From Dubosiella newyorkensis (GTDB lineage: Bacteria; Bacillota_I; Bacilli_A; Erysipelotrichales; Erysipelotrichaceae), in assembly GCF_001945605.1 (NCBI RefSeq), contig NZ_MPKA01000081.1, positions 1 through 16,998 on the forward strand: a stretch of 16,998 nt of DNA. The letters run 5' to 3'. Positions 9,638 through 16,998 of this stretch are shown here, one piece after another. A program made the position numbers and the translations under genes. Positions within the stretch are counted from its first letter, which is position 1, and each line of letters begins with the position of its first letter. Below the pieces are notes generated by a model. That model was given only the letters and a program-made list of their open reading frames with translations, made no database searches and was not told the DNA's origin.

Positions 9638-10174
9638 ATGGCCTACATACGTAGCGCGAGAAAAGAGGACGCGAGCCGTCTTTCAGAGATCTACGCTCCT
9701 TATGTGGTTGAAACAGCCATTACTTTTGAGTATGAGATCCCTTCCCTAGCCGAGTTTGAAAAAAGAATCGAGACAACCAAAGAAACGTATCCGTACCTCG
9801 TGATCGAGGAAAACAGTGTCGTTCAAGGCTATGCGTATGCTAGCCCGCTAAAAGAAAGAGCCGCCTATGACTGGTCATGCGAACTGTCGATCTATTTGGA
9901 CAAGGGAGCGAAGCATAAAGGATATGGAAGAGCGCTCTATGAAGAACTTGAAAACAAATTAAAATCGATGGGGATCTTGAATTTGTATGCGTGTATCGGC
10001 TATCCGATCGTGGAAGACGAGTATTTGGATATGAACAGCGCGAAGTTTCACGCGCATCTAGGCTTTCAAAAAGTAGGGCATTTCCACTCATGTGGCTATA
10101 AATTCAATCGCTGGTACGATATGATCTGGATGGAGAAGATCATTGGCGATCATAAAAACAAGACCGAATGTTGA
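9638..10174 (+). CDS. GNAT-family N-acetyltransferase, phosphinothricin/methionine-sulfoximine acetyltransferase-like
   Basis: MAYIRSARKEDASRLSEIYAPYVVETAITFEYEIPSLAEFEKRI...KHKGYGRALYEELE shows the PAT/YwnH-like pattern with an acetyl-CoA binding motif. It starts 1 nt after the asd stop. Confidence 0.85.
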   Translation: MAYIRSARKEDASRLSEIYAPYVVETAITFEYEIPSLAEFEKRIETTKETYPYLVIEENSVVQGYAYASPLKERAAYDWSCELSIYLDKGAKHKGYGRALYEELENKLKSMGILNLYACIGYPIVEDEYLDMNSAKFHAHLGFQKVGHFHSCGYKFNRWYDMIWMEKIIGDHKNKTEC

Positions 10175-10196
10175 ATAGGACATCCGGTCTTTTTTG
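10160..10196 (+). terminator. intrinsic terminator closing the hom-lysC-asd-GNAT operon
   Basis: AAGACCGAATG-ttgaatagga-CATCCGGTCTT is an 11-bp stem with one mismatch, followed by TTTTTG. It overlaps the GNAT stop codon. Confidence 0.65.
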
Positions 10197-10260
10197 ATTG
10201 GATATGCAAGCTATCTCAAAAATGGGATCAATGATAAATTCATTTCATCTGCGAATACGC

Positions 10261-10431
10261 TTATTTTTTATCTCGTCTAAGAAAAAGATAAATCAAAATA
10301 CAAATCAATATCGCTGTTATCGCGATATAAAACCCTTTTTCCCATGAAGCAGGAATAATGGCATGTATGATCCATGAAAAAATCATCCCGATCAAGATTC
10401 CTAATAACATTGTCTTTACACTTTTATTCAT
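10261..10431 (-). CDS. small hydrophobic protein, 56 aa, two predicted TM helices (below the ORF-track cutoff)
   Basis: Hand translation gives MNKSVKTMLLGILIGMIFSWIIHAIIPASWEKGFYIAITAILICILIYLFLRRDKK*. A GAAAGGATGG RBS lies 7-8 nt upstream. I recognise no family. Confidence 0.45.
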   Translation of the reverse strand: MNKSVKTMLLGILIGMIFSWIIHAIIPASWEKGFYIAITAILICILIYLFLRRDKK

Positions 10432-10549
10432 AGCTATTCCATCCTTTCTTTATTATGAATATAATATAATGAAATTTATGTAAATTAAAGAAAATGAATT
10501 AGCTTCGAAATTAAAAAGTTTAAAAACTATGATTTTAACGGAAATAAAC

Positions 10550-10600
10550 AAGAAAAATACAATCAAGAACGCTTATAGCAGGGCCCCCTACAGCGCTTCT
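10550..10600 (-). terminator. possible terminator at the end of the peptide operon
   Basis: On the minus strand, directly after the lipoprotein stop, AGAAGCGCT...AAGCGTTCT forms an imperfect 8-9 bp stem with one bulge around a GGGCCC-containing loop. TGATTGTATTTTTCTT follows. The structure is imperfect. Confidence 0.35.
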
Positions 10601-11281
10601 TCAATCGTTTTGTTTACTGAGAACGTCTTTGATATCATCCGAAACGACAGAATCGTAAGAGAACACATTAGTTTCTTCTCTTTTAGTATCATCATTAAAC
10701 GTGAATTCACTTTCGATTTTTGAAATCTTATCTCCATCCGATTCGACTTGAATGAGCACTTCTTTTGGTTTTCCATCATCTTTGATTTCGCCTCGCGAGT
10801 AGGAGATTGTATACGTATCATCTTCCTTCTCCACTTTATACACTGAATTCAACTCCATTTTATGATCTTCATTTTCCTCGAACGCTTCGCCAAAGATTGA
10901 ATAGACAAAAATCGCTTTTTGGTTGGCAGGATCCTCGTTTTTTGAAATTTTGTCGTCTTCAATGACGAAAGATCCATTTTCTTCTATAGCTTCTCCTTGC
11001 AACAAGACACCGTCTTTCAAAATTGACCAACCATAATGTGGTGGTTCTGTTTCATTGAACGTCAACAAAGTGTAGTTTTTTTCTCCCTCTTCCCACGCAT
11101 TGAAATCCGTCCCTTTGGGATTAAGAGCATCCACATTCAAGATTGATTGATCGACGGATGAATCGATAACGCGGATGACTTCTTCTGCTGGATCGACCGA
11201 TTGGGGTTCTGTTCCTGTACTTGTACCACAACCTGACAACACGACTAAACTACCTAGAACACTAATCATTGTTTTTTTCAT
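10601..11281 (-). CDS. lipoprotein of unknown function
   Basis: MKKTMISVLGSLVVLSGCGTS is a signal peptide with an L-S-G-C lipobox. The mature part is acidic and soluble. The start ATG overlaps the ABC transporter stop (ATGA at 11278-11281). Confidence 0.8.
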   Translation of the reverse strand: MKKTMISVLGSLVVLSGCGTSTGTEPQSVDPAEEVIRVIDSSVDQSILNVDALNPKGTDFNAWEEGEKNYTLLTFNETEPPHYGWSILKDGVLLQGEAIEENGSFVIEDDKISKNEDPANQKAIFVYSIFGEAFEENEDHKMELNSVYKVEKEDDTYTISYSRGEIKDDGKPKEVLIQVESDGDKISKIESEFTFNDDTKREETNVFSYDSVVSDDIKDVLSKQND

Positions 11282-12903
11282 AGATTCTCCTTCTCCTCTT
11301 CATGCCTTATAGATATTTCTCCATCTACAAATTCTAATATCGATTCATCGTGGGATACTATAATAATGATTTTATCATGCTTCAAACATTTCAGAACTTC
11401 ATATAGTGCTAATTTGCTATTATTATCCAAATTATTTGTTGGTTCATCTAAAAGTATAATTGGTCTATTTGTATTCAAGTAGCCAAACACAGCAATTTTT
11501 TGTTGCTCTCCTCCTGATACTCCAGAAAAATTAAATTCTTTTCTACTAAGCAATTGTTTTATCTTAAATTTTTCAAAGAGATCTTCCGCATATTCATTTG
11601 CAAAATTTATATTACTGTCATTATTTTTCAATAAATATTTTAAATGTAATTTAGAAACATCTTGAAATAAATAACTTATATAATTTTTTCTATATCTATA
11701 ACAATCCAATTCAGATAATTCATAACAATCCAGTTTTAGTTCCCCTATATACTCTCCACTATTCAATCCTGAAATAATGTCTAAATAGGTAGATTTTCCT
11801 ATTCCATTATCACCTTTAATTAAATACAGATTACCTCTTTTCAATATATTATCTTCATACTTGATTAATTCAGAATCCGGTCTATATTGGAATGATAAAT
11901 TTTCTGTTCTAACTATGGGAGTATTTGTTGATAATTCAAATTTTTGCTTTGGGAATTCTTCTACTTCCAAACTTAACAATTTATCTATTCGCAAATAGCT
12001 AGCTTTTTGCTCCGCATGCGAATTCATAAAACCATAAATCGACTCCACGCTGCTCAAGAACATGTTCAAGTAGGTTATAGATGCTATAAAAAGTCCAATT
12101 GTCAAATTCCCATTGATAACTTTGATTCCTCCAATGATGAACAAGGTAATCTGGGGAATATATTTAGAGAGCATGATTATCTCCATCACTTGAACGGAAA
12201 CTTTTTGTTTTTTAAGCAAATTGTCTAATAGTTGTTCTTTTTTTTCGTTTACCGCATCAACAAGTTCTAAATCATGATGAAATTTCAAGTATTTCCAGTA
12301 ATTTAACCATTCGAATACTGAAGAATAATACTTTGTCTGTGAATTTAGATACGTTTTATTAGCAGCAGCAATTTTATCTTTATTAAGACAAAAATAAGCA
12401 AAATAGAGCAAGCCACTTAGTGTTGAAACAAATAATAAAATTAAATCTATTTTTATAATGATATACCCAAGAAACAATATCTGTATTATGGTTAAAATAA
12501 TTTGAATCACACTTTGATAAACAAAATTAATTAAAGCATTGCTATCATTCGTTATTTGCTGAATGGTTTCAGTTACATTCATTTTTTCCAAATATGATTT
12601 CTTACACATTAAAATGTGATTAATTATAGCTGAGATAAAATCATTAGATGAATTCAATTGTATATATGAACATATTTTCAAATTTATAGAATATAAAATG
12701 ACTGATATAATTTGCAACAAAGTTAATACAATTATAACTCTTACTAAGCTATGAACAGATCTATGTAAAGTTATAAAATCGACTATTTTACCATTTATAT
12801 ATGGAACTAATATAGATATCACCAAAGTGATACATTGGATACAGAAGTATAAAGATAGACTTTTCTTATATTTTTTCAAAAAAGAAAAAATAGTTTTATA
12901 CAT
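11278..12903 (-). CDS. ABC exporter, fused permease/ATPase (half transporter) without a C39 peptidase domain
   Basis: About 300 N-terminal residues hold multiple TM segments. They are followed by Walker A GDNGIGKST, Q-loop YLFQD, signature VSGGEQQK, Walker B ILLDEPTNNLD and H-loop VSHD. The start was set at ATG 12903 (MYKTIFSFLKKYKK; GAAAGG RBS 6 nt upstream). The ORF-track ATG at 12957 has no RBS and lies inside a 15-bp hairpin stem. Confidence 0.85.
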   Translation of the reverse strand: MYKTIFSFLKKYKKSLSLYFCIQCITLVISILVPYINGKIVDFITLHRSVHSLVRVIIVLTLLQIISVILYSINLKICSYIQLNSSNDFISAIINHILMCKKSYLEKMNVTETIQQITNDSNALINFVYQSVIQIILTIIQILFLGYIIIKIDLILLFVSTLSGLLYFAYFCLNKDKIAAANKTYLNSQTKYYSSVFEWLNYWKYLKFHHDLELVDAVNEKKEQLLDNLLKKQKVSVQVMEIIMLSKYIPQITLFIIGGIKVINGNLTIGLFIASITYLNMFLSSVESIYGFMNSHAEQKASYLRIDKLLSLEVEEFPKQKFELSTNTPIVRTENLSFQYRPDSELIKYEDNILKRGNLYLIKGDNGIGKSTYLDIISGLNSGEYIGELKLDCYELSELDCYRYRKNYISYLFQDVSKLHLKYLLKNNDSNINFANEYAEDLFEKFKIKQLLSRKEFNFSGVSGGEQQKIAVFGYLNTNRPIILLDEPTNNLDNNSKLALYEVLKCLKHDKIIIIVSHDESILEFVDGEISIRHEEEKENL

Positions 12904-12924
12904 AATCTGCCTTTCAGTCAAATA

Positions 12925-12960
12925 GTAATGGAAAAGAAGTATATGCTTCTTTTCCATTAC
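12925..12960 (-). terminator. perfect stem-loop between the precursor peptide gene and the ABC gene (candidate attenuator or mRNA-stabilising hairpin)
   Basis: GTAATGGAAAAGAAG-catata-CTTCTTTTCCATTAC has a 15-bp perfect stem and a 6-nt loop. It starts 7 nt after the peptide stop codon and is followed only by a weak U-tract (UAUUUG). Confidence 0.55.
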
Positions 12961-12967
12961 TCTAAAT

Positions 12968-13180
12968 TTAACTAAACAAATCAGAAATATTCATCATACC
13001 CGCTTTTGCTGCACAAGTAGCAGCACAGTTATTTGCGCAATTATAGCAAACTCCTGTGTTGGTATTATTACAGTTTGCATTACACTCAATTGAACATGTT
13101 CCTTTGCAAGCGTTTGCTCCGGTATTACAATTTAATCCACAACTAACATCGCATGTGGGGCAAGCATTTATAGAATTCAT
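12968..13180 (-). CDS. Cys-rich repeat peptide, 70 aa (candidate RiPP precursor)
   Basis: MNSINACPTCDVSCGLNCNTGANACKGTCSIECNANCNNTNTGVCYNCANNCAATCAAKAGMMNISDLFS has 12 Cys and 14 Asn. The ATG at 13180 is preceded by AAGGAGGA with a 4-5 nt spacer. It lies 13 nt downstream of the preceding gene's stop and next to the radical SAM/SPASM gene. Confidence 0.8.
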   Translation of the reverse strand: MNSINACPTCDVSCGLNCNTGANACKGTCSIECNANCNNTNTGVCYNCANNCAATCAAKAGMMNISDLFS

Positions 13181-13193
13181 AAAATCCTCCTTA

Positions 13194-13451
13194 TTAAATA
13201 TTAACAATTCGCTTGTTTTCAAAATCGACTTGTAGCTCATAATTCGAGTTTTCGAGATTTAATTCTTTAATTTTTTTTGACCACCAATTTGTATATTCTG
13301 CATTAATTTGAGAATATGTACTGATTAAATCTTTCATAAGATTCGCAGAAATCCCTTCGCTTTTAATTAAAGCCTCTAAAGCTAGCTTCTTTTCAAATAC
13401 ATTCTTGATAAATTCTAAATCTTCATCAGATAAGGCATATTCAATATTCAT
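13194..13451 (-). CDS. small acidic helical protein, 85 aa; candidate accessory or peptide-binding partner of the maturase
   Basis: MNIEYALSDEDLEFIKNVFEKKLALEALIKSEG...NWWSKKIKELNLENSNYELQVDFENKRIVNI sits between the maturase and the peptide with 20-nt and 13-nt gaps. An AAGGAGA RBS is about 10 nt upstream. It has no Cys and no TM segment. Confidence 0.65.
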   Translation of the reverse strand: MNIEYALSDEDLEFIKNVFEKKLALEALIKSEGISANLMKDLISTYSQINAEYTNWWSKKIKELNLENSNYELQVDFENKRIVNI

Positions 13452-13471
13452 CGTTCATTTATCTCCTTTTT

Positions 13472-15211
13472 TTACTCGTAGTAATATCTGTCTTCAACTG
13501 TTTTATCTAAGATATTTAAAATAGGATCCATTACTGGATTATCACTAATATGGATTGTGTTTGGAAAAACCTCGTTCAATATTCTTGCAGCAACAATTCT
13601 TTCTATGTTTGATTTTTTACATTGAAAAGAGGGAGAAACATTGTACTCACCACAATATCTTCTATTAAGAATCCTACAATTTCTACACTGACTTGCATTA
13701 CAATTTCTACATAACGGATTCTTAGTTTGAAATAACAGAATATTCTTTTCTGGTATTCCATCTTTATAGATTGATCCTATTGGATTTTCACCTTGCGAAT
13801 ATGAATAATGGCACGAGTAAATATTTCCATTTGGAGCTATAGCAATTGATTTATCACCTGGAGAGCAATCATTACTATTTCCATACAATAAATCAGATAA
13901 AACATTAATTTTCTTCTCTCTATTGGTACCTTCATATTGATGTTTAATAAAAATGGCGATTTGTTCAATCTGATCTTTATAAACAGCAAAATCAAATTCA
14001 CTATCAAATCCCAAAATATTTAATTCAATCTCATTACTGTGAAGAAAGATGACCCTGATATATTGGGCTAAATTTGATATTTGATTCTGCGAAATATTCA
14101 GAATAATCTTTTTACAAAATATTTCAGATTCGTTCAAATTTTTGACCTCATCACCCTCCAGAACTATCGAAAACAAATTAAAGGTATCTTTCATAGTAAT
14201 CGCTTTTTTAAAGGGTATAATGTGATGAATTGTATAATTTTCAAAAGACTTATCCAAAAAGACAGTTTCGTCCATTGAGCAATCATGAACAAGAAATATT
14301 TCGCTAAACCGATTTCTTGAATATTCTAAAGCATCGAATAAAGTTTCGTAAGACATCTTTATGTCTTCAGGTACTCTTCTTTTTTCTCCACAATAATCTA
14401 CATATTCGTTACTGAGAAGAATATATGTTTTGTTCTGCTGTTTTGGAATCTCCTCTCTAGCAATACCTTTTTGATTAAACAATCGACTGAAATAATAATC
14501 ATTAGCTCTAACTCTAGCCTTGTGCATATTACAAATATACTTAGCATGCGAAAATATAGTTTTAGAACTTGAATCATCATAATTGAAGCCTTGACAAAAA
14601 TCACATCCACGAGCTGCGGGACAGTTTTTACACTCGTCGTCTAACTGATCATTTTTTGTTGCCACTAAGAAAGGTCGAAGTCTTTCTTTATAAATTCCTT
14701 GTACCATATTCCCAATTCTAATTTCAGGATTTTTATCTAGCGAATAATCTTTGAATCTCATGCATGGATAAGTATATCCATCAGGACCAAAAGCCCTCAT
14801 TTTTCCCGATCCACAACTAGTAACACTCAAATCATCTTCGAGCAAATACCCTCCAATAGAATCCAAAAATAATGTGCAGTAGATTTTATCATAGAAGTTA
14901 TTTTCTATAATATAGTCGGCAAGCATTTTTAACTGTTCCTCAAAAATTAAATCATCACCTTCTTTCCATACATTTTCGAATACTACATTGGCTGATATAT
15001 GAGTAAATCCCAAATCAATTAGATGAACAATGCTTGAATACAGCAAAGGAAGATCGGCTGAAGAAAAAGTAACCTTTGTTCCTGGTACGTGATTTTTCAA
15101 GTATTCGGGAATCCCTTTAATGATCACATCATAAGAACCTGAACCGTCCTCGTACACGCGCATTAAATCATGCTTTTCTTTTGTTCCATCCAATGTAATT
15201 CCCAGAGACAC
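13472..15211 (-). CDS. radical SAM enzyme, C-terminal fragment with two SPASM-like Cys-rich modules
   Basis: It begins with VSLGITLDGTKEKHDLMR, the continuation of the rSAM barrel. The first module is CGSGKMRAFGPDGYTYPC...CKNCPAARGCDFC...C. The second is CSPGDKSIAIAPNGNIYSC...CRNCNASQCRNC...C...C. The GTG start at 15211 has no RBS and is probably not a real initiation site. Confidence 0.8.
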   Translation of the reverse strand: MSLGITLDGTKEKHDLMRVYEDGSGSYDVIIKGIPEYLKNHVPGTKVTFSSADLPLLYSSIVHLIDLGFTHISANVVFENVWKEGDDLIFEEQLKMLADYIIENNFYDKIYCTLFLDSIGGYLLEDDLSVTSCGSGKMRAFGPDGYTYPCMRFKDYSLDKNPEIRIGNMVQGIYKERLRPFLVATKNDQLDDECKNCPAARGCDFCQGFNYDDSSSKTIFSHAKYICNMHKARVRANDYYFSRLFNQKGIAREEIPKQQNKTYILLSNEYVDYCGEKRRVPEDIKMSYETLFDALEYSRNRFSEIFLVHDCSMDETVFLDKSFENYTIHHIIPFKKAITMKDTFNLFSIVLEGDEVKNLNESEIFCKKIILNISQNQISNLAQYIRVIFLHSNEIELNILGFDSEFDFAVYKDQIEQIAIFIKHQYEGTNREKKINVLSDLLYGNSNDCSPGDKSIAIAPNGNIYSCHYSYSQGENPIGSIYKDGIPEKNILLFQTKNPLCRNCNASQCRNCRILNRRYCGEYNVSPSFQCKKSNIERIVAARILNEVFPNTIHISDNPVMDPILNILDKTVEDRYYYE

Positions 15212-15611
15212 CTTCCCCTGGTTTTTTTTTCAAAAATTTTTGAACACGATCAACTAAATACATAGTTCCGTTTGTACCAATGTTAAATCTGTAATTCCAC
15301 CAACAAGGTTTATCCAATTGAAAACTTTTAATTTTAAAGTAATCACAAATCTTATCGATTAAATCTATTTCCAATAACGGTTCTCCACCGATGAAATCTA
15401 CAATAACCATTTCTGGAACGTGATCGTTATTTAAAAACTGATCAATTTGCTTTTTAGCAACATCAAATGTCATTTTCTTGTTGCTGGATTTATTTAAGAT
15501 ATAACAATATTTGCATCTTAAGTTACAATCTTCCGTAACAATAAACGTAATTGTTTTAGCAATCCCTTCCCCCCATGAAGGAACGAATTTCCCAACCAAA
15601 TAGTCACTCAT
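15168..15611 (-). CDS. radical SAM enzyme, N-terminal fragment (AdoMet [4Fe-4S] binding part)
   Basis: ITFIVTEDCNLRCKYCY is the CX3CX2C motif. DFIGGEPLL is the GGE SAM-binding motif and NIGTNGT is also present. A GAGG RBS is 7 nt upstream of ATG 15611. The frame ends 18 codons after the A9 run. Confidence 0.85.
   Translation of the reverse strand: MSDYLVGKFVPSWGEGIAKTITFIVTEDCNLRCKYCYILNKSSNKKMTFDVAKKQIDQFLNNDHVPEMVIVDFIGGEPLLEIDLIDKICDYFKIKSFQLDKPCWWNYRFNIGTNGTMYLVDRVQKFLKKKPGEGVSGNYIGWNKRKA
15222..15230 (-). repeat. A9 homopolymer (T9 on the + strand) at the maturase frameshift site
   Basis: Read directly: g-ttttttttt-c at 15221-15231. This is the only place where the two maturase reading frames can be joined. 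Confidence 0.95.
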
Positions 15612-16402
15612 AATCTAACCTCGCATAATATGAAAACAATCAGAACATGAGACGGAGTTGTGTTTTTGAAGTCTCCAGGCTCTGATTTCCTACCCCCATA
15701 CAGCGATTGGAAATCAAACTTTTTTCTCGGTTCATTCGAATTGCTTTCATTCTCTTTCTTTAGATAATGGTTACGCTTTAAATGAAGTTTTCGTCAATCT
15801 CCTTGCGTTTTCTTTGGAAGTCTTCCTAATTAAGACTTATTCTTCTCATCTCAAGACTATCTCCGAATACTTGAATCTTTCAAAATATAACCATTCAAAT
15901 TTCTGCAAAAGAGTGAAAGAATATTTACCACCATGAAAATAAATCTGGAGAAATTCATCCATTTATCTACATAGCGAAATGTCGATCGACATCTTCCGCA
16001 GTATCCATATAAACTAGGCTGAAATAACAGCCAATCTGTTTTTGAAAAAACCTTCAGAGTTTTGCTTTTGTAAAGTTCTTTTCTATACTCCAATTTTTCT
16101 CGAAGCAAGTGTAAAATCAGCTATTGCCCTAGTACATTGAATTTGCTCATTAAAGATAGCTTTCAACATACTTTTCCTTTCTAACTAAGCCTTTGTTTTC
16201 TGCTTAGGTTTATTCTAGAATCGAAATTGTGAATGTGTATTTGAGTTGTTTTCCTTGTAGCTTTGACTACCTTAGAAAGGATCTTGCCACTTCGGTGTTT
16301 TGAAACTGCTATCAGTTTGATGAGCCTTGAATTCGTATCGCACCAGGATCAGTTCTTCATCGCTTGTGGCTTTGACACATTGTTCACCATTCGAGGTTCA
16401 CT

Positions 16403-16501
16403 ATGATTGCGATCGGTATCGATATCGGCAAATTCAAACACTGCACTGCTGTTTATGACTCTTCCTTTTTACTTATGAACGCTATCATGCCAAAACTCTA
16501 G
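16403..16501 (+). pseudogene. possible N-terminal remnant of an IS110-family transposase
   Basis: ATG at 16403 gives MIAIGIDIGKFKHCTAVYDSSFLLMNAIMPKL*. The first 19 residues resemble the conserved IS110-family start (x-x-GIDI/V-x-K-x-KH-x-x-x-V-x-D). Similarity is lost afterwards and the frame stops after 32 codons. Confidence 0.3.
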
Positions 16502-16645
16502 AAAATGAGAAGTCACACTCTTTTATTTCTTGCCATTTATCAAAAGAATCTCAACTTTACTAAAATAAAACACTTTCTTTCGATATCCATACAAGTCAAC
16601 ATGTTTTCTATTTCCACATCCAGCCTCAAGCTGAGGGCTTATTTT

Positions 16646-16789
16646 TCATTTATGCCCGTCATTCGTCCCAAAAGGATGACTTATTTTCCAGCAATCATCC
16701 ACTTGATGATGTTCGGGACAGTATTGAGGCAGAAGAAGTATACTACCAACAAATACCGCTGTAATTAGCTTTAAAAGTTTCTTTTTCAT
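16646..16789 (-). CDS. hypothetical small secreted peptide, 47 aa
   Basis: MKKKLLKLITAVFVGSILLLPQYCPEHHQVDDCWKISHPFGTNDGHK has a signal-peptide-like N-terminus and 2 Cys. An AAAGGA RBS lies about 9 nt upstream. The longer 104-aa ORF-track version has an implausible AT-rich extension. Support is weak. Confidence 0.3.
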   Translation of the reverse strand: MKKKLLKLITAVFVGSILLLPQYCPEHHQVDDCWKISHPFGTNDGHK

Positions 16790-16938
16790 AACATATTGTC
16801 CTTTCTTTATTATAAATATGATAAAATTTATACAAAAGAAAAGGAATGAATTTCTTTCGAAATTCAAAAATGGCAGTGTCAATATTTTTGTGTAAATTGT
16901 TTTCTTAGTAATTAGTTCTGAGTTTGTTAAGGTGAATG

Positions 16939-16980
16939 AGCGAACACTAAGAAAAGGCATGCCTTTTCTTAGTGTTCGCT
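16939..16980. repeat. perfect 42-bp palindrome (21-nt arms)
   Basis: AGCGAACACTAAGAAAAGGCA|TGCCTTTTCTTAGTGTTCGCT is identical to its own reverse complement, checked base by base. It lies at the right edge of the AT-rich segment. Confidence 0.95.
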
Positions 16981-16998
16981 GCTCGTCGGCTGACGGGA

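What the first reader, a model, noticed from the sequence alone, without database searches (positions are those of the whole stretch)
10601..15611. AT-rich five-gene operon: radical SAM/SPASM enzyme, small partner protein, 12-Cys repeat peptide, ABC exporter, coupled lipoprotein (candidate thioether-crosslinked RiPP system)
**Seen in the sequence**
- All five genes are on the minus strand.
- The gaps between them are 20 nt, 13 nt and 64 nt (the last filled by a hairpin), followed by an ATGA overlap.
- The first gene has the CX3CX2C radical SAM motif plus SPASM-type Cys motifs.
- The third is a 70-aa ORF with 12 Cys and a strong RBS.
- There is no protease, no regulator and no lanthipeptide or cyclodehydratase enzyme.

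**Established knowledge**
- rSAM-SPASM enzymes encoded beside short Cys-rich ORFs install Cys-to-carbon thioether bridges.
- Known cases are sactipeptides (AlbA/subtilosin) and ranthipeptides (CteB/SCIFF thermocellin, PapB/freyrasin).

**Inference**
- This is a RiPP cluster of that general class, with a precursor unlike those well-studied examples.
- From memory, which I cannot verify here, NCBIfam/TIGRFAM has bioinformatically defined 'CXXX-repeat peptide' maturase and 'modification system protein' families that this trio may belong to.
- I am not aware of any structurally characterised product of that type.
Basis: partly seen in the sequence, partly recalled or inferred. Interest (0 to 1): 0.85.

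Follow-up and report, generated by a model that had tools for sequence, protein, structure and literature searches.

The report
Broken CXXX-repeat radical SAM peptide operon
This is a gut bacterium's copy of a widespread but chemically uncharacterised gene set that uses a radical SAM enzyme to modify a small peptide carrying a cysteine about every fourth residue, and in this strain the enzyme gene is broken by one extra base.

Summary
Window 10601-15611 (minus strand, about 30% GC against about 45% in the flanks) encodes five genes:
- a radical SAM/SPASM maturase
- an 85-aa partner
- a 70-aa peptide with 12 Cys
- an ABC exporter with no peptidase domain
- a translationally coupled lipoprotein

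The host is Dubosiella newyorkensis.

The frame-repaired maturase passes the NCBIfam cut-offs for TIGR04115 (452 bits, cut-off 350) and TIGR04119 (161 bits, cut-off 150). The partner is a divergent TIGR04116 member. A maturase + partner + Cys-every-fourth-residue peptide trio recurs across Clostridia and Bacteroidales.

What this work adds:
- The C-terminal half of the maturase is a diverged duplicate ending in a second SPASM-like seven-Cys domain.
- The enzyme lacks the RRE of CteB and PapB.
- The precursor is essentially leaderless, is built as three blocks of four Cys, matches no precursor model, and evolves faster than its neighbours with every Cys fixed.

In this strain the system is probably inactive. 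An A9 run splits the maturase, while intact A8 alleles exist in other samples. An IS256-family element truncates an upstream HTH/TPR regulator gene.

Thioether chemistry is inferred from the nearest characterised relatives and is not shown. I found no paper characterising a product of this family. Verdict: a new member of a known, bioinformatically defined kind.

The parts
15168..15611 (-). Maturase, 5' fragment (147-aa ORF). It carries the radical SAM CX3CX2C motif at 15504-15527.
   Evidence: PF04055 and Fer4_12 hit this part. It forms part of the TIGR04115 match (repaired residues 18-373).
15222..15230 (-). A9 homopolymer that frameshifts the maturase. The intact allele has A8.
   Evidence: A9 is present in the window and in L046, L047, L049 and L052. 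A8 is present in L001, L048 and L053. The repaired reading, KKNQGKVSLGITLDG, matches the family consensus.
13472..15211 (-). Maturase, 3' fragment (579-aa ORF). It holds the rest of the radical SAM barrel, the SPASM domain (Cys region 14531-14815), an alpha/beta middle domain (13913-14434) and the TIGR04119 domain (13565-14107).
13619..13867 (-). Second SPASM-like seven-Cys region of the maturase (C582, C600, C634, C637, C642, C645, C664).
   Evidence: All seven Cys are invariant in 33 homologues. hhalign of this region against the first SPASM region gives 97% probability, E = 1.1e-10. Half-against-half comparison gives 97.4%.
13194..13451 (-). 85-aa partner, a divergent member of the 'CXXX repeat peptide modification system protein' family.
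   Evidence: TIGR04116 scores 28.1 bits, below its cut-off of 50. A custom HMM built without the window sequence gives E = 1.2e-12, and the family lies beside the maturase in 43 of 46 sources. The single-sequence AF2 model has pLDDT 89: strand, two long helices, beta-hairpin.
12968..13180 (-). 70-aa precursor peptide with 12 Cys in three blocks of four, a 6-residue N-terminus and a 14-residue C-terminal tail.
   Evidence: The strong SD is conserved. All 12 Cys and their spacing are conserved in the sister species at 78.6% identity.
12924..12961 (-). Hairpin between the precursor and the ABC gene. Probably an attenuator or an mRNA-stabilising stem.
   Evidence: -29.5 kcal/mol, z = -7.2. The palindrome is conserved in the sister species. 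No strong U-tract follows it, and the terminator scan did not list it.
11278..12903 (-). ABC exporter (541 aa; permease plus ATPase, no peptidase domain).
   Evidence: ABC_membrane and ABC_tran hit. The best NCBIfam alignments start at about profile position 141 of the peptidase-containing bacteriocin exporters.
10601..11281 (-). 226-aa lipoprotein (lipobox LSGC), translationally coupled to the ABC gene by an ATGA overlap. Function unknown.
   Evidence: It was found only in Dubosiella. It is unrelated to the roughly 750-aa SBP-like proteins or the S8 peptidases at this position in relatives.
10261..10431 (-). 56-aa ORF, apparently two transmembrane helices by eye, downstream of the lipoprotein. 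Membership of the operon is uncertain.
   Evidence: (called as a gene in all Dubosiella newyorkensis contigs). A GC-rich terminator-like hairpin follows at 10160-10191.
16646..16789 (-). 47-aa ORF with a signal-peptide-like N-terminus and two Cys. Candidate secreted signalling pro-peptide.
   Evidence: It is conserved in the sister species (74.5% identity), where it lies directly between the regulator gene and the maturase.
16818..16871 (+). Remnant (first 18 codons) of an HTH_3/TPR_2 regulator gene.
   Evidence: MIKFIQKKRNEFLSKFKNG in the window against MIKFIQKKGNGFLSKFRSFK in L054. HTH_3 24.9 bits and TPR_2 27.3 bits on the intact 454-aa protein of L054.
16872..16998 (.). End of an IS256-family element that truncates the regulator gene and ends the contig.
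   Evidence: In L050 and L051 the same end sequence flanks a Transposase_mut gene. Other samples carry it inserted at window positions 11663, 12673 and 13975.

Best explanation
**What it is.** This is a Dubosiella newyorkensis copy of the 'CXXX-repeat peptide' radical SAM RiPP system, which NCBIfam defines bioinformatically (TIGR04115, TIGR04119, TIGR04116).

**Proposed working when intact**
1. The 70-aa peptide is made in excess. It has a strong SD, and a hairpin after the gene may damp read-through or stabilise the message.
2. The 712-aa maturase, helped by the 85-aa partner, uses its radical SAM cluster to abstract hydrogen from the peptide. Its auxiliary Fe-S clusters would then hold the Cys thiols and form intramolecular crosslinks, most probably thioethers, at up to 12 Cys.
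3. The maturase has no RRE and the peptide has almost no leader. Recognition probably relies on three things: the repeat itself, the conserved C-terminal tail, and the partner and/or the duplicated C-terminal half of the enzyme. That half is a degenerate barrel plus a second SPASM-like seven-Cys domain, which could bind two further clusters.
4. The peptidase-less ABC transporter exports the product. The coupled lipoprotein is an accessory or immunity factor.
5. Expression was probably governed by a divergent HTH/TPR regulator and a 47-aa secreted pro-peptide.

**State in this strain.** The system is most likely off. The maturase is frameshifted (A9 instead of A8) and the regulator gene is cut by an IS256-family element.

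**Shown here**
- family membership
- the conserved trio
- the domain duplication
- the allele states

**Inferred**
- thioether chemistry
- the roles of the partner, the C-terminal half and the lipoprotein
- regulation
For: **Family membership**
- TIGR04115 scores 451.7 bits (cut-off 350) and TIGR04119 scores 161.4 (cut-off 150).
- More than 6,800 homologues were found. The 120 listed are mostly about 705-770 aa, and many carry the name 'radical SAM peptide maturase, CXXX-repeat target family'.

**Nearest characterised relatives all form Cys thioethers**
- PapB model: 212 bits.
- SCIFF maturase (CteB) model: 149 bits.
- QhpD model: 126 bits.
- CteB is the best solved structure both by sequence (E = 7e-32) and by fold (E = 5e-16).

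**Conserved trio**
- The partner family lies beside the maturase in 43 of 46 sources.
- A Cys-period-4 ORF lies nearby in 37 of 46.
- ABC exporters appear only in the Firmicutes loci.

**No RRE**
- The CteB alignment starts at CteB residue 93.
- The NCBIfam PapB model match starts at query residue 19.
- PapB has an RRE at residues 1-86, yet acts without a leader in vitro (PMC12715619).

**Duplication**.

**Precursor**
- All 12 Cys and their spacing are conserved between two Dubosiella species.
- 15 codons differ non-synonymously against 9 synonymously. For the ABC gene the figures are 53 against 55.

**Inactivation**
- A9 occurs in five assemblies and A8 in three.
- The exact repaired protein is found on 29 contigs.
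- The regulator remnant and the IS end are documented.
Against: - No product of this family has been characterised in anything I could search, so the chemistry rests on homology alone.
- Gly is the commonest residue at repeat positions 2 and 3. This does not fit one uniform side-chain (beta or gamma carbon) acceptor.
- All six residues equivalent to the CteB catalytic-site set differ from CteB.
- The partner has no detectable structural relative (best Foldseek E = 0.5). Calling it a recognition factor is a guess.
- The lipoprotein is an orphan found only in Dubosiella.
- The precursor matches none of the NCBIfam precursor models.
- Whether the A9 allele is truly silent is untested. Slippage on an A9 run could restore some full-length product.
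Confidence: 0.72

Rival explanations
1. The enzyme modifies the Cys-rich peptide, but not by forming sacti- or ranthi-type thioethers to other residues. Alternatives include Cys-to-Cys crosslinks at the fixed i/i+4 spacing, oxidation of Cys, or a peptide whose main role is to bind metal or Fe-S through its thiols.
For: - Cys is the only invariant residue at fixed spacing in the repeat. Positions 1-3 are variable and rich in Gly.
- PapB, the nearest model, links Cys to the residue at i+4 (CSANDA motif, PMC12715619). In these peptides the residue at i+4 is the next Cys.
- The extra seven-Cys domain has no counterpart in the alignments to the known thioether synthases CteB and PapB.
- Bacteroidales precursors carry SRREFFK, a twin-arginine-like N-terminus. 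Such signals typically export folded or cofactor-bearing proteins.
Against: - All the closest characterised homologues form Cys-to-carbon thioethers.
- The anaerobic sulfatase maturase model scores far lower (71.5 bits).
- There is no direct evidence for any alternative chemistry.
Confidence: 0.2
2. The A8/A9 run is a phase-variation switch (slipped-strand mispairing) that turns peptide maturation on and off in the population. It is not simple gene decay.
For: - Both alleles occur in independent assemblies of otherwise 99.9-100% identical DNA.
- The run lies within the coding sequence and changes by a single base.
Against: - The operon is also hit by irreversible events. IS256-family insertions occur at window 11663, 12673 and 13975 in other samples.
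- A second frameshift, at a different site, occurs in the sister species.
- An IS sits in the regulator gene.
- This pattern fits relaxed selection better than a dedicated switch.
Confidence: 0.2
3. The true precursor is the 90-aa ORF (12968-13240). It begins MSYKS and would carry a family-like N-terminal leader.
For: - Firmicutes relatives start M(S)Y[DNE]SK[IL] and have their first Cys at residues 16-25.
- The 90-aa ORF starts MSYKSI and has its first Cys at residue 27.
- Gene callers chose the 90-aa form on some contigs.
Against: - In the sister species the same frame reads IMN*KSILK, so a stop interrupts the extension. The SD and ATG of the 70-aa ORF are unchanged there.
- No SD precedes the 13240 ATG.
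- It would overlap the conserved C-terminus of the partner by 47 nt.
- Leaderless relatives exist (L043 begins MYGC).
Confidence: 0.07
4. The enzyme is an anaerobic sulfatase-maturating enzyme or another non-RiPP SPASM enzyme, and the Cys-rich ORF is incidental.
For: One database cluster of a homologue carries the name 'anaerobic sulfatase-maturating enzyme' (P0032). anSME is the second-best fold match.
Against: - TIGR03942 scores 71.5 bits against a cut-off of 349.
- No sulfatase gene is in the window.
- Cys-repeat peptides and the partner co-occur with the enzyme across two phyla.
Confidence: 0.01

Closest known systems
NCBIfam/TIGRFAMs 'CXXX-repeat peptide' radical SAM system (TIGR04115 + TIGR04119 maturase, TIGR04116 partner, TIGR04114/04117/04118 precursors)
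   Same: - The maturase passes both curated cut-offs.
- The partner is homologous and sits in the same position.
- The precursor is Cys-rich with a mostly 4-residue Cys period.
- The gene order (maturase, partner, peptide, ABC exporter) is the same as in the closest relatives, L043, L044 and L045.
   Different: - The partner scores below its curated cut-off (28 against 50 bits).
- The precursor matches none of the three precursor models. It has two long linkers that split it into three blocks of four Cys, and almost no leader.
- The fifth gene is an orphan lipoprotein rather than the S8 peptidase or roughly 750-aa SBP-like protein of relatives.
- The closest non-Dubosiella maturase is only 48-49% identical.
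- The maturase gene here is frameshifted.
PapB/PapA (freyrasin), a ranthipeptide system of Paenibacillus polymyxa
   Same: - It is the best-scoring characterised maturase model (212 bits).
- Its substrate has tandem short Cys motifs, each crosslinked locally (six Cys-Asp links, CSANDA).
- PapB tolerates leaderless substrates in vitro (PMC12715619).
   Different: - The score is below the PapB cut-off (340).
- PapB has an N-terminal RRE (residues 1-86), while this enzyme has none. The match to the 330-position PapB model ends at query residue 337, so the roughly 340-aa C-terminal half and the partner have no counterpart in that model.
- The peptide here has no regular acidic acceptor at i+4. The next Cys occupies that position.
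CteB/CteA (SCIFF, thermocellin), a ranthipeptide system with a solved structure (5WGG/5WHY)
   Same: It is the best solved homologue by sequence (residues 15-368 align to CteB 93-443, E = 7e-32) and by fold. It has the same radical SAM plus SPASM two-auxiliary-cluster core.
   Different: - The SCIFF maturase model scores 148.6 bits against a cut-off of 425.
- No RRE is present.
- All six catalytic-site-proximity residues differ.
- The precursor is not a SCIFF peptide.
Quorum-sensing-regulated radical SAM RiPP operons of streptococci (shp/rgg type; NxxcB and others)
   Same: In the sister Dubosiella species an HTH + TPR regulator is transcribed divergently from a small secreted-peptide ORF, which lies directly upstream of the radical SAM operon.
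   Different: - The regulator is 454 aa and is assigned only by marginal Pfam HTH_3 and TPR_2 hits. No Rgg or SHP family match was obtained.
- In this window the regulator is destroyed by an IS.
- The resemblance is in gene architecture only and was not tested further.

Membership tests
CXXX-repeat peptide rSAM system (NCBIfam) | The N-terminal radical SAM/SPASM region of the maturase reaches the TIGR04115 cut-off (350 bits). | tested here: met
   451.7 bits over residues 18-373 of the frame-repaired protein.
CXXX-repeat peptide rSAM system (NCBIfam) | The C-terminal 'CXXX repeat peptide maturase' domain reaches the TIGR04119 cut-off (150 bits). | tested here: met
   161.4 bits over residues 502-682.
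CXXX-repeat peptide rSAM system (NCBIfam) | The partner protein reaches the TIGR04116 cut-off (50 bits). | tested here: not met
   28.1 bits, E = 1.7e-6, and it is the only family hit. Relatives score 68-69 bits.
CXXX-repeat peptide rSAM system (NCBIfam) | The partner is homologous to the family and encoded next to the maturase. | tested here: met
   An HMM of 10 relatives built without the window sequence gives E = 1.2e-12. The family lies beside the maturase in 43 of 46 sources. L28, W57 and F77 are invariant.
CXXX-repeat peptide rSAM system (NCBIfam) | An adjacent small ORF has Cys at every fourth residue. | tested here: met
   12 Cys with spacings 3,4,4,7,4,4,4,8,3,4,4, conserved in the sister species. 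The period is less regular than in relatives, which show runs of 13-18 Cys.
CXXX-repeat peptide rSAM system (NCBIfam) | The precursor matches a curated precursor model (TIGR04114, TIGR04117 or TIGR04118). | tested here: not met
   No hit at E <= 1 for either the 70-aa or the 90-aa form.
CXXX-repeat peptide rSAM system (NCBIfam) | The maturase reading frame is intact. | tested here: not met
   The A9 run at 15222-15230 splits the gene. Intact A8 alleles exist in other samples.
Ranthipeptides (PapB / CteB type) | The maturase reaches the PapB (340) or SCIFF maturase (425) equivalog cut-off. | tested here: not met
   212.1 and 148.6 bits respectively.
Ranthipeptides (PapB / CteB type) | [quoted passage not shown] | tested here: not met
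   The alignment to CteB begins at CteB residue 93 and query residue 15. The CX3CX2C motif starts at residue 29.
Ranthipeptides (PapB / CteB type) | A thioether runs from Cys sulfur to a beta or gamma carbon of an acceptor residue. | not testable with these tools
   This needs MS/MS and NMR of the modified peptide.
Sactipeptides | A thioether runs from Cys sulfur to an alpha carbon. Typical examples have a hairpin topology, with donor Cys in one half of the peptide and acceptors in the other. | not testable with these tools
   The chemistry is untestable here. The Cys are spread evenly along the core, which does not resemble the hairpin layout. The best sactisynthase model hit is weak (RumMC, 78.8 bits against a cut-off of 720).
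Anaerobic sulfatase-maturating enzymes | The protein reaches the TIGR03942 cut-off (349 bits) and has a sulfatase neighbour. | tested here: not met
   71.5 bits. No sulfatase ORF is in the window.

The most novel reading that the evidence does not exclude
The CXXX-repeat maturases may be a distinct enzyme type: a radical SAM-SPASM core fused to a diverged copy of itself, with up to five Fe-S clusters, plus an obligatory small partner in place of an RRE. Such an enzyme would process leaderless (C-x3)n peptides into a product that is neither a sactipeptide nor a ranthipeptide. One possibility is a continuous ladder of Cys(i)-to-Cys(i+4) links, or crosslinks at every repeat whatever the side chain. 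That would amount to a new RiPP class. The natural A8/A9 alleles in Dubosiella would offer an isogenic on/off pair to test its role in the gut.
Probability: 0.2. Interest if true: 0.8.

Novelty: new member of a known kind. Interest (0 to 1): 0.5.

Why it matters
- **Large family, unknown chemistry.** More than 6,800 homologues were scored, spanning Clostridia, Erysipelotrichia, Bacteroidales and Spirochaetes. The family has had curated models for over a decade, yet I found no paper describing its product or chemistry.
- **Usable test case.** This locus comes from a named mouse-gut species. An intact allele is available in public data, the peptide is compact (70 aa, leaderless), and naturally broken alleles can serve as controls.
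- **Testable hypotheses from the enzyme.** The duplicated SPASM-like half, the universal 85-90-aa partner and the absence of an RRE suggest how a radical SAM enzyme might recognise and process a repeat substrate without a leader. This bears on current work that uses PapB-type enzymes as peptide macrocyclisation catalysts.
- **Limits.** For this particular window the practical value is lower. The maturase and the regulator are both disrupted, and the family assignment was already present in public annotation of sibling strains.

Tried and rejected
1. **90-aa precursor with an MSYKS leader.** Attractive because relatives start M(S)Y[DNE]SKI. Rejected because the sister species has a stop codon in the extension.
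2. **Lipoprotein related to accessory proteins of relatives.** phmmer, blastp and tblastn against the roughly 750-aa SBP-like proteins and the S8 peptidases found nothing. The 5.8-billion-protein search returned Dubosiella sequences only. Pfam and NCBIfam gave only the lipid-attachment signal.
3. **Partner as a PqqD-like RRE.**
   - No Pfam family. Sub-threshold HTH_38 hits appeared in 11 of 25 members.
   - Foldseek against the PDB gave no match better than E = 0.5.
The model therefore rests on a single sequence.
4. **Exhaustive HMMER search with the 70-aa peptide.** Two hits, both long unrelated repeat proteins.
5. **Predicting sacti- versus ranthi-type chemistry from the six CteB catalytic-site-proximity residues (PMC10288494).** The mapping gives Y37, I74, G112, T139, M284 and R285. 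Without the paper's reference table this cannot be interpreted.
6. **Literature.** 'CXXX repeat', 'CXXX-repeat' and TIGR04115 gave nothing relevant. Haft & Basu 2011 is not held. Four papers searched for relevant terms do not discuss this family.
7. **Other negative searches.**
   - Rfam and tRNA scans of the window were empty.
   - The plasmid BLAST of 15612-16998 was empty.
8. **The 1-kb AT-rich stretch at 15628-16638.** It showed no similarity to the regulator gene or to anything else fetched.
9. **Promoters.** The promoter scan is uninformative in this AT-rich DNA: 34 sites found against 33.9 expected.

Full report
**Observation**

- The gaps are 20 nt, 13 nt and 64 nt, followed by an ATGA overlap at 11278-11281.
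- The 64-nt gap assumes the ABC start at 12903. The alternative ATG at 12957 lies inside a near-perfect palindrome (12924-12961). That palindrome folds at -29.5 kcal/mol, z = -7.2.
- The 70-aa ORF has 12 Cys and an AAGGAGG 5 nt upstream of its ATG.
- The lipoprotein has an LSGC lipobox.
- GC falls from 0.40-0.50 in the threonine/aspartate-pathway genes on the left to 0.23-0.37 across 10001-16500.
- The maturase is split by an A9 run at 15222-15230. Deleting one A gives a 712-aa protein.

**Host and alleles**

Exact-sequence look-ups place the window in Dubosiella newyorkensis, on a 16,998-bp contig. Public sources already call the 85-aa protein 'CXXX repeat peptide modification system protein'.

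The repaired 712-aa sequence exists exactly on 29 contigs, and other 712-aa variants occur on further contigs. A9 is present in L046, L047, L049 and L052 as well as in the window. A8 is present in L001, L048 and L053. The frameshift is therefore a real allele and not a one-off error.

**Family**

- The repaired maturase scores 451.7 bits on TIGR04115 (cut-off 350) over residues 18-373.
- It scores 161.4 bits on TIGR04119 (cut-off 150) over residues 502-682.
- Next come PapB (212), the SCIFF maturase (149), CcpM (141) and QhpD (126), all below their cut-offs. The anaerobic sulfatase maturase model scores only 71.5.
- Pfam sees Radical_SAM, Fer4_12 and SPASM.
- The big-database search scored more than 6,800 homologues. 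The 120 listed are mostly about 705-770 aa, and the best outside Dubosiella is only 48-49% identical.

**Conserved neighbourhood**

I examined 45 fetched loci plus the window (46 sources).
- An HMM of the partner family, built without the window sequence, finds a partner next to the maturase in 43 of 46 sources. It scores the window's partner at E = 1.2e-12.
- A small ORF with a run of Cys at period 4 lies nearby in 37 of 46. My strict filter missed the Dubosiella peptide itself, and most of the other failures are short or cut contigs.
- In Clostridia the order is usually maturase, partner and one or more precursors, then an ABC exporter plus either an S8 peptidase or a roughly 750-aa SBP-like protein.
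- In Bacteroidales the precursor usually lies upstream of the maturase and begins with an SRREFFK twin-arginine-like signal. No ABC exporter is adjacent.

**Maturase architecture**

- The best solved relative is CteB. Query residues 15-368 align to CteB 93-443, so the RRE of CteB has no counterpart.
- Foldseek on a good AF2 model (pLDDT 84, pTM 0.83) ranks CteB first, then anSME, ChlB, SuiB and PqqE.
- In an alignment of 33 homologues the invariant Cys include the SPASM set (C266, C283, C327, C330, C336, C339, C360).
- A second set of seven is also invariant: C582, C600, C634, C637, C642, C645 and C664. C407 is invariant as well.
- Profile-profile comparison of the two regions gives 97% probability, E = 1.1e-10.
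- Comparing the two halves aligns 146 columns, from the last barrel units through SPASM, at 97.4%.
- The model shows alternating strands and helices in residues 393-566.

I read the C-terminal half as a diverged duplicate that has lost the SAM-cluster motif and kept a SPASM-like cluster domain. Cluster binding is inferred, not shown.

**Partner**

The single-sequence AF2 model (pLDDT 89) shows a short strand, two long helices and a C-terminal hairpin. It has no Pfam family and no PDB fold match better than E = 0.5. Its role is unknown. Its near-universal presence beside an RRE-less enzyme makes substrate handling the most economical guess.

**Precursor**

The start codon was in doubt, because a 90-aa ORF begins MSYKS and relatives begin M(S)Y[DNE]SKI. 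The sister Dubosiella species settles this. There the extension reads IMN*KSILK, while TAAGGAGGATTTTATG and the 70-aa ORF are conserved.

The peptide therefore has only six residues before its first Cys. It then has three blocks of four Cys (spacings 3,4,4 / 7 / 4,4,4 / 8 / 3,4,4) and a 14-residue tail. By eye, the tail loosely resembles the G-x-G-[IM]...L-[LI] tails of relatives.

It matches no NCBIfam precursor model and has no real relative in an exhaustive HMMER search.

Between the two species it is 78.6% identical, against 90-98% for the maturase, partner, ABC exporter and lipoprotein. Non-synonymous codon differences number 15 against 9 synonymous, yet all Cys and their spacing are fixed. 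This pattern would fit a functional, diversifying core (my inference).

**Export and the fifth gene**

The ABC protein has the transmembrane and ATPase domains only. It aligns from about profile position 141 of the peptidase-bearing bacteriocin exporters. The lipoprotein is found only in Dubosiella and is unrelated to what relatives encode at that position. An accessory or immunity role is conjecture, by analogy with immunity lipoproteins of other bacteriocin operons (my own knowledge).

**Context and decay**

- In the sister species a 454-aa HTH_3 + TPR_2 protein is encoded divergently from a 47-aa ORF with a signal-like N-terminus. That ORF lies 36 nt upstream of the maturase.
- In the window the 47-aa ORF is at 16646-16789. 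Only 18 codons of the regulator remain (16818-16871), cut by the end of an IS256-family element (16872-16998). The same element ends the contig.
- The same IS end is found at window positions 11663 (L001), 12673 and 13975 (L050, L051) in other samples.
- The sister species carries a different maturase frameshift, giving 590-aa and 138-aa products.

The locus is thus hit repeatedly by inactivating events. Relaxed selection seems more likely than a dedicated switch, although A8/A9 phase variation is not excluded.

**Mechanism**

*Shown:*
- the enzyme is a CteB/PapB-like radical SAM-SPASM protein of the CXXX-repeat family
- the Cys-repeat peptide and the partner are its conserved neighbours

*Inferred:*
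- it forms thioether crosslinks at the Cys, because every close characterised relative does
- PapB installs six local Cys-Asp links in tandem CSANDA motifs and works without a leader in vitro (PMC12715619), which makes a leaderless tandem substrate plausible

*Not decidable here:* the acceptor atom. Gly is the commonest residue at repeat positions 2 and 3. That argues against one uniform side-chain acceptor. It leaves open alpha-carbon links, partial modification, or links to the next Cys.

**Novelty**

The family has been curated in TIGRFAMs/NCBIfam for years, and sibling strains are already annotated with its name. I found no experimental paper on it. This is a new, divergent and locally broken member of a known but uncharacterised kind.

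Points I did not find in the papers I could search:
- the duplicated SPASM-like half
- the lack of an RRE
- the universal partner
- the leaderless three-block precursor

Noticed in passing
window 16872-16998; also L050 1-103 and 1407-1533, and L001 3852-3880: The window ends 127 nt into an IS256-family element. The neighbouring transposase in L050 hits PF00872. The same end sequence is joined to window positions 11663, 12673 and 13975 in other samples, which means independent insertions into the ABC and maturase genes.
   Followed up: yes
window 16818-16871 (+); L054 4272-5636: The first 18 codons of a 454-aa HTH_3/TPR_2 regulator gene survive and are cut by the IS. The gene is intact in a sister Dubosiella species, where it is divergent from the operon.
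   Followed up: yes
window 16646-16789 (-): A 47-aa ORF (MKKKLLKLITAVFVGSILLLPQYCPEHHQVDDCWKISHPFGTNDGHK) has a signal-like N-terminus and two Cys. It is conserved at 74.5% identity in the sister species, with a variable C-terminus. It could be a secreted signalling pro-peptide paired with the regulator.
   Followed up: partly
window 10430-10590 against 16700-16871: An imperfect direct repeat of about 130-160 nt flanks the low-GC operon block. The left copy carries the RBS of the 56-aa ORF and a second partial copy of the regulator's 5' end (+ strand). It continues in homology with L054 beyond the point where the right copy is cut by the IS. This may mark an island boundary or a partial duplication.
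   Followed up: partly
window 15628-16638: About 1 kb of AT-rich DNA with no convincing ORF lies between the 47-aa ORF and the maturase. It is absent from sister-species contig L054, where the gap is 36 nt. It shows no similarity to anything else fetched. Several Logan contigs start at about window 16200, and L052 diverges beyond 16130.
   Followed up: partly
window 10261-10431 (-): A 56-aa ORF, apparently two transmembrane helices by eye, lies 169 nt downstream of the lipoprotein. A GC-rich terminator-like hairpin follows at 10160-10191. It may be a sixth gene (immunity?) or separately transcribed.
   Followed up: partly
L054/L055 5844-7616; P0188 and P0191: The sister Dubosiella species carries a different maturase frameshift near residue 573, giving 590-aa and 138-aa products. 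L056 is broken again (531 + 54 aa). No fully intact system (regulator plus maturase) was seen in either species.
   Followed up: partly
L009-L040 (Bacteroidales, Spirochaetes, Ignavibacteria loci): Precursors in these loci usually lie upstream of the maturase. They begin with an SRREFFKKAAKGALPILG twin-arginine-like signal in place of the Firmicutes-type N-terminus, and no ABC exporter is adjacent. This suggests export of the modified protein by the Tat pathway.
   Followed up: no
L008 5986-7179 and 7204-8157: In one Lachnospiraceae genome the maturase is encoded as two ORFs (397 + 317 aa), split between the SPASM core and the C-terminal half. This is either a natural two-protein form or another frameshift.
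   Followed up: no
L042 850-3545; L045 2382-3086; L003 4987-5598: Some Clostridia relatives have agr-like (AgrB, histidine kinase, LytTR regulator) or other response-regulator genes upstream of the system. This hints at quorum-sensing control in the wider family.
   Followed up: no
window 16939-16980: A perfect 21 + 21 nt palindrome (AGCGAACACTAAGAAAAGGCA / TGCCTTTTCTTAGTGTTCGCT) lies inside the IS end.
   Followed up: no
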